Made by a program: the position numbers and the translations under genes
Virus record (IMG/VR): IMGVR_UViG_3300049783_001162
Reading direction: 5' to 3' (one strand)
DNA: 64,000 nucleotides
From: an uncultured virus (IMG/VR IMGVR_UViG_3300049783_001162)
Lineage: Duplodnaviria > Heunggongvirae > Uroviricota > Caudoviricetes
The notes under the pieces: generated by a model
The model's database searches: none
Seen by the model: only the letters and a program-made list of their open reading frames with translations
What the model was told of the DNA's origin: nothing
In this document: positions 6,245 to 8,969 of the stretch, in pieces
Layout of the letters: each line of letters starts with the position of its first letter
Position numbering within the stretch: the stretch's first letter is position 1

Positions 6245-7426
6245 ATGTCAGAACTATTAGAAAGTAGATGGCAGGAGACCAAGGGTGCCCTTCTTGAAGG
6301 CCTTGCAGGCAACAAAAAAGCAGTGATGAATGTTACACTGGAAAATACCCGTAGGTATCTTTCGGAAAGTGCAACTGCTGGAGCCACTTCTGCTGGTAAT
6401 ATCGCAACACTACACCGTGTAATCCTTCCAGTGATTAGACGTGTTATGCCTACTGTTATTGCAAACGAACTTGTTGGTGTACAGCCGATGCAAGGTCCAG
6501 TATCACAGATCCACACTCTACGTGTACGTTACAGTGACAACTTCACTGACGCCACTGGTGGAAACGTAACAGCTGGTGAAGAAGCACTAAGTCCATTCAA
6601 AATTGCTGAAGGTTACTCCGGTAACGTCGGCACTGGCAACGGACGCCCAGCAAATACTTCATCGCTTGAAGGCGTTGCAGGTAATAAGATGTCTATCCAG
6701 ATTCTCAAGCAGACTGTTGAAGCTAAATCACGTAAGCTATCAGCACGTTGGACTTTCGAAGCTGCACAAGACGCACAAGCAATGCATGGCATTGATGTAG
6801 AAGCAGAAATAATGGCTGCTCTTGCACAAGAAATTACTGCTGAAATCGACCAAGAAGTACTACGTAGCCTTCGCTCACTAGCGGGATCTGCTGTAGAAAC
6901 TTACGACCAAGCAGCAGTATCTGGTACTGCTACTTTCGTTGGTGACGAGCACGCTGCACTAGCTGTTCAGATCAACAGAGTATCAAACCTAATTGCTCAG
7001 CGTACACGTCGCGGTGCAGGTAACTGGGCAGTGGTTTCACCAACTGTTCTTACACTTCTACAGTCAGCAACTACTTCGGCATTTGCTCGTACTACTGAAG
7101 GCACATTTGAAGCACCAACTAACACTAAAATGGTTGGTACTATCAATAACGCAATGAAGGTATATGTTAACACATATGCAACTTCAGATGATGTGATCAT
7201 TGGTTACAAAGGAACAAGTGAATCAGATGCAGCGGCTTTCTATTGCCCATACATCCCACTTATGAGCTCCGGCGTTGTTCTTGATCCACAAACATTCGAG
7301 CCAGTAGTTAGCTTCATGACACGTTATGGTTATGTTGAACTAACAAACACTGCGTCATCACTTGGTAACGCAGCAGACTACTTGGGTGTTGTTGGAGTTA
7401 CAACTGGTAACCTTAGCTTTAGCTAA
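6245..7426 (+). CDS. gp23: Major capsid protein (T4 gp23-like)
   Basis: LVGVQPMQGP, VEAKSRKLSARWTFEAAQD, EITAEIDQE, FYCPYIPL, FMTRYG motifs. Confidence 0.97.
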   Translation: MSELLESRWQETKGALLEGLAGNKKAVMNVTLENTRRYLSESATAGATSAGNIATLHRVILPVIRRVMPTVIANELVGVQPMQGPVSQIHTLRVRYSDNFTDATGGNVTAGEEALSPFKIAEGYSGNVGTGNGRPANTSSLEGVAGNKMSIQILKQTVEAKSRKLSARWTFEAAQDAQAMHGIDVEAEIMAALAQEITAEIDQEVLRSLRSLAGSAVETYDQAAVSGTATFVGDEHAALAVQINRVSNLIAQRTRRGAGNWAVVSPTVLTLLQSATTSAFARTTEGTFEAPTNTKMVGTINNAMKVYVNTYATSDDVIIGYKGTSESDAAAFYCPYIPLMSSGVVLDPQTFEPVVSFMTRYGYVELTNTASSLGNAADYLGVVGVTTGNLSFS

Positions 7427-7450: not shown

Positions 7451-7474
7451 AGGCCCTACGGGGCCTTTTCTTTT
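7451..7474 (+). terminator. Intrinsic terminator after major capsid gene
   Basis: aggccc-TACG-gggcct (UNCG loop) followed by tttctttt. Confidence 0.9.
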
Positions 7475-7506
7475 GGCAAAAAACTATACAACGCTGTAAA
7501 TAGAGG

Positions 7507-7535
7507 TTGACCTCTGCTGTATGTAATGCTATATT
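7507..7535 (+). promoter_or_regulatory. Sigma70-type promoter with extended -10
   Basis: TTGACC-17 bp-TATATT, with TG two bases upstream of the -10. Confidence 0.75.
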
Positions 7536-7577
7536 AAGTACAACACAACAAACAACAGCACATAGGAACATAGGCAC

Positions 7578-8156
7578 ATGAAAATTACACTACGCAAGGC
7601 AAACGCTGTACAAGCAGCAATTAATGAAGCAGTTACTTCTTTGGATCTTACCACTGATGTCAGTGTTAATGAGTTCCAGAAGCCATTGGCAGTAATGGCT
7701 TCCGCAAGAGACACGTTTTCTGCAAACCTACACACGCGCACCAACTTGCTGAACGCATTGTATGGTATTCGTCGTGACGTTGCTCGTGCAAATGCCACAG
7801 CAGGCGTTAATGACACGCTTACAAAGGTCGCGCATCTTGAAAAAGAAATTGGACATATGACTAGGCTGTCAAAGTTGAAGCCACAAGTTGAAATTTCTGT
7901 AATCCGTGGCAAGCTTGGTAAGATTAAAGCTAGAGATTCTAGCGCAAGTGATTCATACCGCTTTGGAGAAACCGACGATTTGGTCAAAACATCAATTTTT
8001 AAACGAAACGAAATTGAAGATTTCCGTAAGCAGGTCGTTGACATGAAAAAGAGAAAGTTGCTGCTACAAGACGCACTTCTTGAATTAAATGTGAAGACCG
8101 AAATTGAAATCGACACAGACAGCCTGCCAGTGCTCACAGAAGCTGGTATCCTGTAA
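7578..8156 (+). CDS. Coiled-coil hypothetical protein, possibly a remote DIP1984/DUF6847-like family member
   Basis: 192 aa helical ORF with its own promoter; MKITLRKA ... IRRDVARANAT ... LQDALLELNVKTEIEI layout recalls the DIP1984 family (recognised from memory, not searched). Confidence 0.6.
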   Translation: MKITLRKANAVQAAINEAVTSLDLTTDVSVNEFQKPLAVMASARDTFSANLHTRTNLLNALYGIRRDVARANATAGVNDTLTKVAHLEKEIGHMTRLSKLKPQVEISVIRGKLGKIKARDSSASDSYRFGETDDLVKTSIFKRNEIEDFRKQVVDMKKRKLLLQDALLELNVKTEIEIDTDSLPVLTEAGIL

Positions 8157-8163
8157 ACAGTTT

Positions 8164-8448
8164 GGTAATTATGCGGTGAAAACTGTAAATTACCCAGAGG
8201 AGAAAGAGAAAAAGAAATCGACTTCCGTTTGAGATCACTAAGTGATCATAAACATATGTTCAATGATTTATTCATTTTAGCAAATCTTGACCCAGTTACT
8301 TATTAGCCTTGATTGTGCCTGCACATTGTTAACTGGAAATATGATTCTTATGCATTTTGCTTTTTGAATTTTGCCGCTGGCCACGCCGTTAATGGGATAC
8401 GCCTGTATGCACTTTGTCTTAGTCAATTTTTATACTTTTTCTTCTCTG
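8164..8448 (+). ncRNA. Candidate structured ncRNA / long structured 3' UTR
   Basis: No ORF; GAAA-tetraloop hairpin 8164-8194; 14-bp long-range stem 8195-8208/8435-8448 with G-U pairs; internal stems; repeated 9-mer. Confidence 0.7.
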
Positions 8449-8455
8449 TTCTATT

Positions 8456-8485
8456 AAAGACTAGTCTCCGGACTAGTCTTTTCTC
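8456..8485 (+). terminator. Intrinsic terminator
   Basis: aaagactagtc-TCCG-gactagtcttt followed by T-rich sequence. Confidence 0.9.
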
Positions 8486-8510
8486 TTGACGACCCTATCT
8501 GTTCTTTTGA

Positions 8511-8590
8511 TAAATATAAGTGTCTAGAACTGTGCAAACAGACTTATGCGGAGACCCTCCGCGTAGACCTAGAACGTCAACATAGGAGAA
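8511..8590 (+). promoter_or_regulatory. Late-type promoter plus structured 5' leader
   Basis: TAAATA at 8511-8516; ctgt-GCAA-acag and ttatgcggag-acc-ctccgcgtag hairpins enclosed by tctag/ctaga; SD AGGAGA. Confidence 0.6.
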
Positions 8591-8594
8591 ACAA

Positions 8595-8969
8595 ATGGGA
8601 CGTCCAATTAATAAAAGATACCTCGGTACCACAGGCGGAACCGAAGACGGCACAATGCCAGCAACAGTTAAAGTAGGTGCAAACGCTGTTTCAGTTAATG
8701 GAATAATAATTTCACAAAGATCAGAAACTAAATTTCAAGTCAACGACGCAGCAGACGGATCGGGTAATGCCGGGTCTTGCGTTCTAGTCGACAAAGATGT
8801 GCCAGATGCTGGCGAAATGGTTGTTAAGGGATATGTCACTGGTACAGGCGACGGTGTTAACATTCGTAAGTTTCACAACAGAACAGTAGTTGACTTTGAT
8901 AATGTTCATTACACCTGGACAGTACAAGATGATTCAACATCTAACATTTTAGTGTTAACTGCAATATAA
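8595..8969 (+). CDS. Putative virion structural protein
   Basis: 124 aa, beta-rich, strong SD, late promoter upstream. Confidence 0.6.
   Translation: MGRPINKRYLGTTGGTEDGTMPATVKVGANAVSVNGIIISQRSETKFQVNDAADGSGNAGSCVLVDKDVPDAGEMVVKGYVTGTGDGVNIRKFHNRTVVDFDNVHYTWTVQDDSTSNILVLTAI

What the first reader, a model, noticed from the sequence alone, without database searches (positions are those of the whole stretch)
7507..8485. Self-contained protein + structured ncRNA unit inserted after the major capsid gene
Seen: between two strong terminators (7451, 8456) lies a complete unit with a sigma70-type promoter (TTGACC-17-TATATT), a 192-aa coiled-coil gene and about 290 nt of non-coding sequence, the longest gap in this very compact window. 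The gap folds on the + strand: a GAAA-tetraloop hairpin (8164-8194); a 14-bp long-range closing stem CAGAGGAGAAAGAG/CTTTTTCTTCTCTG (8195-8208/8435-8448) whose only non-Watson-Crick pairs are G-U; and nested stems GATCAC/GTGATC, AATGA/TCATT, AGCAAA/TTTGCT and CCAGTTA/TAACTGG. Inference: this is a ribonucleoprotein or RNA-regulated module, such as an oligomeric protein held by a cognate RNA in the manner of type III toxin-antitoxin or anti-defence systems, expressed by host polymerase inside a late cluster. The protein layout recalls DIP1984/DUF6847-like coiled-coil proteins. I do not recognise the RNA as a named family.
Basis: partly seen in the sequence, partly recalled or inferred. Interest (0 to 1): 0.88.

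Follow-up and report, generated by a model that had tools for sequence, protein, structure and literature searches.

The report
Phage UG-repeat RNA with partner protein
Many large phages keep a small helical protein gene beside an uncatalogued folded RNA that carries the letters UG every seventh base, eight times over, which points to an undescribed RNA-protein particle whose job is not yet known.

Summary
The unit is real. A sigma70-type promoter, a 192-aa gene and a ~290-nt structured RNA lie between two terminator hairpins. The RNA accompanies the gene in 158 of 162 loci; the four misses end at contig edges. Searched from the RNA side, 53 of 55 strong matches have the gene. The core structure covaries: 93% of cells paired, 34 of 38 pairs compensated. 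One proposed stem (AGCAAA/TTTGCT) fails. The RNA can precede the gene or be separated from it by other genes, and two metatranscriptomes hold contigs of the RNA alone (weak hint), so it is probably trans-acting. The protein is predicted to self-associate and its best fold match is DIP1984 (3kdq), but it misses that family's HMMs. Its usual home is a tRNA cluster (51 of 78), not the capsid slot (18 of 78). Distant phage relatives use 8-nt UG or 7-nt AG-type repeats. Best reading: an RNA-scaffolded particle of about four protein dimers that displays a variable RNA domain in phage-host conflict. Binding and function are untested. It is not type III toxin-antitoxin.

The parts
7451..7476 (+). Intrinsic terminator closing the capsid-gene transcript; insulates the unit upstream
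   Evidence: similar hairpin at the same place in other capsid-slot loci
7507..7535 (+). Sigma70-type promoter TTGACC-17-TATATT with TG before the -10
   Evidence: motif upstream in 42 of 63 gene-first representatives, 0 in control
7578..8156 (+). 192-aa helical-hairpin protein, DIP1984-like fold, predicted antiparallel dimer; invariant R6 K7 N9 Q12 E32 F33 R65 N72 K115 K160 D165 N171
8161..8452 (+). Non-coding RNA, about 290 nt; ends approximate
   Evidence: metatranscriptome contigs 8177-8384 (identical) and 8175-8381 (a relative)
8164..8194 (+). P0, 5' hairpin; base conserved, top variable; weak or missing in some clades
   Evidence: helices 1-3
8195..8223 (+). 5' strands of the closing stems P1 (8195-8208) and P1b (8213-8223)
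   Evidence: (helices 4-6, 93-95% paired)
8224..8282 (+). Variable domain of two hairpins (8227-8253, 8262-8276); a hairpin with a YUUGAAA loop in this slot in 30 of 78 representatives, not in this copy
8283..8346 (+). P4: outer stem AAUC/GAUU (8283-8286/8343-8346), internal loop with invariant UG at 8288 opposite GGAAAUA, inner stem 8292-8298/8330-8336; its loop holds UG units 1 and 2 (8320, 8327)
   Evidence: helices 7-8
8351..8416 (+). UG units 3-6 (8351, 8358, 8365, 8372), optional inserted hairpin (8374-8407), UG units 7-8 (8408, 8415)
8421..8448 (+). 3' strands of P1b (8421-8431) and P1 (8435-8448)
8456..8487 (+). Terminator-like hairpin with T-rich tail; likely 3' end of the transcript here
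   Evidence: seen directly, folded; similar hairpins in L003 and L008; not listed by the scan

Best explanation
The gene and the RNA form one ribonucleoprotein of fixed make-up. Host sigma70 polymerase transcribes both; the RNA is then released as a stable species closed by its terminal stem and capped by the 5' hairpin (inferred). The protein forms antiparallel dimers (predicted) whose conserved basic and polar residues read UG dinucleotides held single-stranded at 7-nt spacing (inferred). Eight UG sites, mostly as UGCAnnU-UG pairs, would seat about four dimers on one RNA, so the RNA sets the size of the particle (inferred). The protein acts as coat and scaffold; the variable hairpin domain, which is a tRNA-like element in a sister clade, is the displayed working part. 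Most likely role: a protected RNA decoy or tether that helps the phage against host RNA- or tRNA-directed machinery early in infection. Odds: real trans-acting RNA 0.9; bound by this protein through the UG tract 0.75; the decoy/tether role about 0.35.
For: Shown: co-occurrence in both directions (158 of 162; 53 of 55); covariation of five helical regions; UG spacing peak at 7 nt, 522 against 163 +/- 12; six units in the 3' tract in 69 of 78 representatives as 6, 4+2 or 3+3 around a hairpin; CA follows UG in units 1, 3 and 7 (56, 52, 54 of 67) but never in units 2 and 4; RNA upstream of the gene in 14 of 78 and other ORFs between the two in several loci; RNA-only contigs in two metatranscriptome studies; protein and RNA distances track each other, Spearman 0.68 against at most 0.16 permuted (expected of any linked pair). 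Same layout behind 27-29%-identical homologues in cultured CcrColossus and Kikimora, each with six UG at period 7; the model R1 finds the CcrColossus RNA as top hit in 73 kb, E 0.004. Period changes with protein clade: 8 nt in pEa_SNUABM_47, GAP32, Munch and Vp_R1. Predicted: self-association score 0.64 against best control 0.25; runs agree in at least 89% of contacts, pLDDT at least 83; the mark was reached by 20 of 30 solved homodimers and 1 of 23 monomers, calibration only roughly applicable and 3kdq may be remembered. Context: tRNA within 1 kb in 51 of 78; GOLLD nearby in 4 of 16 selected loci; tRNA inside the gap behind the ME3 relative.
Against: No binding, stoichiometry or function was measured. 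The four-copy prediction gave only a dimer interface, no ring. Unit 5 breaks the odd/even pattern (CA in 13 of 67), and the 3+3 clade splits a pair. The spacing across the inserted hairpin is not constant by folding (1-13 nt outside the stem, mode 6), so only the count of units is shown to be kept. A ninth invariant UG (8288) sits in an internal loop and may or may not be a site. R1 missed Kikimora and all 8-nt and AG-type RNAs: these share layout, not detectable sequence. The expression evidence is contigs only, with no strand, level or DNA control. This copy has no tRNAs in its 64-kb window and no YUUGAAA loop. Loci were the best 80 of 358 and 80 of 473 and were picked by a motif, so they lean to close relatives.
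Confidence: 0.65

Rival explanations
1. RNA-neutralised effector that works like a type III toxin-antitoxin pair: free protein polymerises or binds a host target and stops growth or excludes other phages; the RNA soaks it up through the UG sites until the RNA decays. This shares the binding model of the best explanation and differs in which part does the work.
For: Gene never found without the RNA where flanks allow a test; one promoter; RNA-only contigs suggest RNA excess; bacterial DUF6847 genes are patchy (over cut-off in 4 of 401 and 4 of 301 genomes) and each of those 8 is followed by a closed, folded-looking stretch (by eye).
Against: No nuclease fold or catalytic motif; no hydrophobic segment (highest 19-residue hydropathy 0.6); no PADLOC match; RNA usually downstream with no terminator between, the reverse of the type III layout; no intact orphan RNA was shown; RNA is far more elaborate than a sponge needs.
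Confidence: 0.2
2. Cis-acting autoregulation: the protein binds the repeats in its own transcript to control its stability or translation.
For: RNA starts within 40 nt of the stop codon in 47 of 64 gene-first representatives and shares the promoter.
Against: RNA lies upstream in 14 of 78, or 250-480 nt away beyond other ORFs or RNAs; closed 5'-3' stem; RNA-only contigs.
Confidence: 0.06
3. DNA site: the heptad repeats are iteron- or centromere-like binding sites for the protein on the double helix.
For: Fixed-period direct repeats next to a coiled-coil gene.
Against: Repeats sit inside a covarying RNA fold with frequent G-U pairs on the + strand only; hairpins of 21-43 nt interrupt the tract at different places; RNA contigs cover it.
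Confidence: 0.03
4. Virion or morphogenesis component tied to the capsid operon.
For: Lies between the major capsid gene and a conserved late gene in 18 of 78 representatives; RefSeq labels some far relatives of the ME3 clade 'tail fiber protein'.
Against: Own sigma70-type promoter and terminators cut it out of the late transcript; 51 of 78 lie in tRNA clusters and none of the 18 capsid-slot loci has a tRNA within 1 kb; the fold is not fibre-like; bacteria without phage context carry the DUF6847 version.
Confidence: 0.05

Closest known systems
DIP1984 family (NCBIfam NF038048, Pfam PF20935 DUF6847; structure 3kdq, Corynebacterium diphtheriae, function unknown)
   Same: Top fold match over nearly the whole chain (Foldseek E 0.023, TM 0.46/0.55; VIA Z 10.0, rmsd 4.9, 141 aligned); similar terminal motifs; the 8 bacterial members examined are also followed by a folded-looking non-coding stretch.
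   Different: 40 residues longer; no hit to either HMM; profile-profile probability 4.6% against 8 bacterial members; the RNA differs in sequence and repeat type. No paper on function was found.
Type III toxin-antitoxin systems (ToxIN, CptIN, TenpIN; PMC5086642, passages read)
   Same: One promoter, one protein and one RNA with repeated elements; probable ribonucleoprotein.
   Different: Those have an endoribonuclease, tandem 34-36-nt pseudoknot repeats upstream, and a terminator between RNA and gene. Here: helical-hairpin fold, one closed RNA with dinucleotide repeats, usually downstream, no inner terminator.
Ro60/Rsr with Y RNA or YrlA (recalled, no call)
   Same: RNA closed by a 5'-3' stem, kept next to its protein gene, with a variable domain that can be tRNA-like; found near tRNAs in phages.
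   Different: Unrelated protein fold; binding here is inferred to be through eight periodic single-stranded sites by several dimers; no Rfam match.
TRAP and HutP, oligomers that read spaced (G/U)AG or UAG triplets (recalled, no call)
   Same: A short motif at fixed spacing in single-stranded RNA, read once per subunit of a symmetric oligomer.
   Different: Those bind mRNA leaders in cis to control attenuation; here the target is a dedicated structured RNA gene and the fold differs.
GOLLD RNA (RF02032)
   Same: Structured phage RNA of tRNA clusters; present nearby in 4 of 16 loci scanned.
   Different: Different family; does not overlap this RNA; no dedicated partner gene of this kind is known to me.

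Membership tests
DIP1984 / DUF6847 | Score over the curated cut-off of NF038048 or PF20935 | tested here: not met
   No hit for the window protein in Pfam, for 64 aligned members among the 25 families listed, in the identical virus record or in NCBIfam, where a bacterial control scored 188 bits
DIP1984 / DUF6847 | Same fold as 3kdq | tested here: inconclusive
   Best hit in two searches and the only near-full-length one among the top rows, but E 0.023 and Z 10.0 lie in the range that helical bundles reach by chance; Atlas feature score 0.91 to a cluster with 19% DUF6847. Probably homologous.
Type III toxin-antitoxin | Toxin is an endoribonuclease (ToxN/CptN/TenpN) | tested here: not met
   Model is a long helical hairpin; no Pfam, PHROG, NCBIfam or PADLOC family of that kind
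Type III toxin-antitoxin | Antitoxin of tandem ~35-nt repeats upstream, separated from the gene by a terminator | tested here: not met
   RNA downstream in 64 of 78; repeats are dinucleotides at period 7; no terminator between gene and RNA in the window (definition)
Type III toxin-antitoxin | Pseudoknotted antitoxin | tested here: inconclusive
   No crossing helix among the top covarying column pairs of A2, but the variable domain aligns poorly
Type III toxin-antitoxin | Protein toxic alone and neutralised by the RNA | not testable with these tools
   Needs expression tests
Any Rfam 15 family | Covariance-model score at or above gathering | tested here: not met
   0 hits in the window; best E 9.5 on the opposite strand; only tRNA and GOLLD, elsewhere, in 13 and 16 related loci
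Ro60 - Y RNA | TROVE-domain partner and Y-RNA family match | tested here: not met
   Partner has no TROVE match; no Y/YrlA match in Rfam

The most novel reading that the evidence does not exclude
DIP1984-fold proteins and their RNAs are a widespread, undescribed class of RNA-templated particle. The RNA counts out a fixed number of protein dimers through a clade-specific code of periodic dinucleotides (UG every 7 nt here, UG every 8 nt in other jumbo phages, AG/AAG every 7 nt in T5-like and Bastille-like phages), and the coated RNA displays an exchangeable domain, up to a whole tRNA, as a decoy or tether in the phage-host conflict over translation.
Probability: 0.4. Interest if true: 0.9.

Novelty: categorically new. 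Interest (0 to 1): 0.8.

Why it matters
It would give the first function to a structurally solved but unexplained protein fold (3kdq) and add a new class of phage ribonucleoprotein, spread over hundreds of uncultivated large phages and present in cultured ones. A simple rule (one dinucleotide every 7 or 8 bases, eight sites) makes binding and stoichiometry directly testable, and Caulobacter phage CcrColossus gp272 with its 284-nt gap offers a harmless host for genetics. An RNA that sets the size of a protein assembly and tolerates inserted hairpins would also be a useful scaffold. The class as a whole has been noted before in unpublished notes of this scan for other branches; this UG-7 branch was not found among them by sequence.

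Tried and rejected
Family libraries gave nothing for the protein: Pfam, PHROGs, NCBIfam, PADLOC, PDB sequences. No longer or fused forms among 8000 candidates (weak evidence). Rfam gave nothing for the RNA. A test that the inserted hairpin keeps an exact 5-nt spacer was inconclusive. A search for a pseudoknot by mutual information found none in the alignable part. The DNA HMM and the model R1 did not detect the 8-nt, AG-type or bacterial RNAs, nor Kikimora. 25 of 80 long loci of the DNA pattern scan were chance matches without RNA or gene, and 40 short loci could not be tested. Run X2 had nothing laid, and the lack of cover over the ORF in X1 and X3 proves nothing by itself. The window's own assembly is not held. 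Literature: DIP1984 1 paper, DUF6847 0, 3KDQ 0, PF20935 0, septicolysin 34, two multi-term searches without a relevant paper (listings only). Fremin 2023 (PMC10690425; abstract, outline and supplement search): six motifs not found in six files searched, files 1, 2 and 4 not searched, so this RNA may be among its 10,006 candidates. No genuine cellular copy was shown: two MAG contigs carry gene plus RNA (L284, L285) and may be phage contigs.

Full report
SETTING. The window is the head, tail and replication region of a large T4-like phage: major capsid gene gp23 at 6245-7426, sheath, gp32, RecA-like and helicase genes further on. It holds no tRNA gene and no Rfam hit. The finding lies just behind the capsid gene.

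OBSERVATION. The non-coding part folds far better than shuffles on the + strand (z -4.0, 0 of 200) and only weakly on the - strand (z -1.8). The promoter match is not above chance in one sequence, but a like motif precedes the gene in 42 of 63 gene-first representatives against 0 in a control.

THE PROTEIN. It has 152 relatives by single-sequence search (120 listed, 64 of them aligned as A1) and 1,771 representatives at 50% clustering by profile. Atlas clusters of close relatives are 91-100% viral. No family library names it. The model (pLDDT 87, pTM 0.64) is a long helical hairpin with short strands at both ends. The best solved match in two searches is 3kdq, the Corynebacterium diphtheriae DIP1984 protein (Foldseek E 0.023; VIA Z 10.0, rmsd 4.9, 141 aligned). 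That is suggestive, not decisive, for a helical protein; the family HMMs miss it and the profile comparison is weak. Invariant residues in A1 are mostly basic or polar (R6, K7, N9, Q12, E32, R65, N72, K115, K160, D165, N171). There is no membrane segment. A four-copy prediction scored 0.64 against a best control of 0.25, with at least 89% of contacts shared between runs and pLDDT at least 83; 20 of 30 solved homodimers and 1 of 23 monomers reach that mark, the calibration fits only roughly, and 3kdq may be remembered. Only a two-chain antiparallel interface was confident, with residue 73 touching residue 73.

THE RNA TRAVELS WITH THE GENE. I fetched 161 loci (the best 80 of 358 and of 473 in the two profile scans). 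An iterated DNA profile seeded on 8160-8452 found one match in 158 of 162 loci, the window included. The misses are L014 and L070 (contig ends in the gene) and L065 and L105 (244 and 183 nt left, which resemble the inserts of long-gap loci); L080 is a weak partial hit at a contig start. Of the 80 with long flanks, 55 held a strong RNA match and 53 of these the gene on the same strand; the other two lie at contig ends; 25 were chance matches. Among 78 representatives under 90% identity the order is gene-RNA in 64 and RNA-gene in 14, and other ORFs or RNAs lie between the two in several. A simple 3' UTR does not behave so.

STRUCTURE. On 55 aligned sequences (55 of the 78, chosen for alignability) a 38-pair model gave 93.0% paired cells against 77.9% shuffled and at most 49.6% slid, 34 pairs with changes on both sides, and 0 of 500 shuffles as high on all five measures. 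The structure came from this alignment, so the slid control leans in its favour; the number of pair types per pair is the stronger evidence. The fold is a 5' hairpin, a long closing stem with an inner extension, a variable two-hairpin domain, and a stem with a conserved internal loop (UG opposite GGAAAUA).

THE UG TRACT. Apart from three at the 5' hairpin, the invariant columns are U, UG and UUG positions at 8288, 8320, 8327, 8351, 8358, 8365, 8372, 8408 and 8415. Over 80 RNAs, UG pairs 7 nt apart number 522 against 163 +/- 12 in shuffles, with a second peak at 14. Two units lie in the loop of P4 and six in the 3' tract. The six are unbroken in 10, split 4+2 by a hairpin in 54 and 3+3 in 5 of 78; 9 have an imperfect unit or a different count. 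CA follows UG in units 1, 3 and 7, never in 2 and 4, and seldom in 5. No covarying partner was found for the tract. Fixed period, fixed count and free spacers are what a symmetric protein oligomer would select for; this step is inference.

EXPRESSION. Two metatranscriptome studies hold stand-alone contigs inside the RNA: 208 nt identical to 8177-8384 (X1) and 186 nt of a relative over 8175-8381 (X3); X2 had nothing laid. Contigs show no strand or level and no DNA run was laid, so this is a weak hint of an abundant discrete RNA.

WIDER FAMILY. Caulobacter phage CcrColossus gp272 and Brevundimonas phage Kikimora gp177 (27-29% identity) are followed by gaps of 284 and 286 nt with a 5' hairpin, a closing stem and six UG at period 7; such a run arose in 1 of 1,600 shuffles. 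The model R1 ranks the CcrColossus RNA first in 73 kb (E 0.004) and misses Kikimora. Erwinia phage pEa_SNUABM_47, Cronobacter phage GAP32, Salmonella phage Munch and Vibrio phage Vp_R1 carry clear homologues (A1 profile E below 1e-8 in a 20-protein set; profile-profile 98.6%) followed by closed RNAs with UG at period 8. A more distant clade (Acinetobacter phage ME3, Vibrio phages Ceto and pVp-1, Pseudomonas phage Y1-MI, Bacillus phage Thurquoise; link to A1 weak, 31% probability) has AG-, UA- or AA-type repeats at period 7, clearest in the first four, and ME3 has a tRNA in the same gap. All 8 bacterial DUF6847 genes over cut-off in 702 genomes are followed by a non-coding stretch with shared motifs (judged by eye). 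Earlier notes of this scan describe those other branches; none matched this protein or RNA by sequence.

CONTEXT. 51 of 78 representatives have a tRNA within 1 kb; 18 lie in the slot behind the capsid gene, none of them near tRNAs. GOLLD lies nearby in 4 of 16 selected loci. The capsid slot is one of two homes, and terminators cut the unit out of the late transcript, which seems to resume at GATAAATA 8509 (T4-type late promoter, recalled).

MECHANISM. Shown: linked gene and RNA, covarying fold, periodic conserved UG, flexible order. Predicted: dimer. Inferred: the RNA is processed to a stable closed species; dimers read UG pairs; about four dimers coat one RNA; the variable domain is displayed. 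For the role I favour a protected decoy or tether acting on host RNA- or tRNA-directed machinery (about 0.35), from the tRNA-cluster setting, the early-type promoter, the lack of any catalytic or membrane feature in the protein and the tRNA in a sister clade. An RNA-neutralised effector is the main rival (0.2). Cis regulation, a DNA site and a virion role are each contradicted by specific results.

COMPARISON AND NOVELTY. It fails the type III definition in PMC5086642 (passages read) on toxin fold, repeat type and gene order. It works like TRAP or HutP in reading spaced short motifs and like Ro60-Y RNA in pairing a closed RNA with one protein (both recalled), but belongs to neither. Nine library searches found no description (listings only); subscription papers, bioRxiv supplements and three files of PMC10690425 were not seen, so a catalogue entry for the RNA alone cannot be excluded. 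I rate it categorically new against print, and as a new branch of a class that this scan has already met. Interest 0.8.

Noticed in passing
window 8509-8602: Conserved leader of the 124-aa gene at 8595: GATAAATA late-promoter-like box, a hairpin near 8546-8566, and an ACGTC that could pair with GACGT just inside the ORF and hide the ribosome site. Seen in 10 capsid-slot loci printed. It belongs to the next gene, not to the unit.
   Followed up: partly
L054 2774-3004; similar ORFs in L056, L058, L079: A phage-encoded RNA polymerase omega-like gene (Pfam PF01192, E 8e-13 for L054) lies between the RNA and the protein gene in four RNA-first loci; only L054 was scanned.
   Followed up: partly
L037, L107, L118 (344-480 nt), L047, L106 (140 nt), L009, L101 (80 nt), L036, L131, L029, between gene and RNA: Further non-coding, folded-looking inserts with no Rfam match where scanned; at least three distinct kinds.
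   Followed up: no
L057, L063, L064, L121, between gene and RNA: A 140-aa ORF without Pfam match (L057 scanned) sits inside the unit; it looks interrupted in L121, and L071 keeps only its last 55 nt.
   Followed up: partly
L305 downstream of the DUF6847 gene: Two tandem copies of the bacterial RNA, with short TTACTG/TTATTG repeats.
   Followed up: no
L192 2434-2728: The RNA carries an internal duplication of about 58 nt that repeats part of the UG tract (two pattern matches).
   Followed up: no
BFVD hits A0A1V0SA40 and A0A5K0UAD2: Catovirus and Yasminevirus proteins match the fold (E 9e-6, 6e-5), so the family may reach giant viruses of protists; their neighbourhoods were not examined.
   Followed up: no
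RefSeq records listed: Relatives of the ME3 protein are labelled 'tail fiber protein' in several RefSeq phage records although they lie in tRNA regions before a non-coding gap; probably a propagated mislabel.
   Followed up: partly
window 8509, 11674, 35135, 39885, 40625, 42985, 46124, 47640: GATAAATA/TATAAATA boxes at or near gene starts, probably this phage's late promoters.
   Followed up: no
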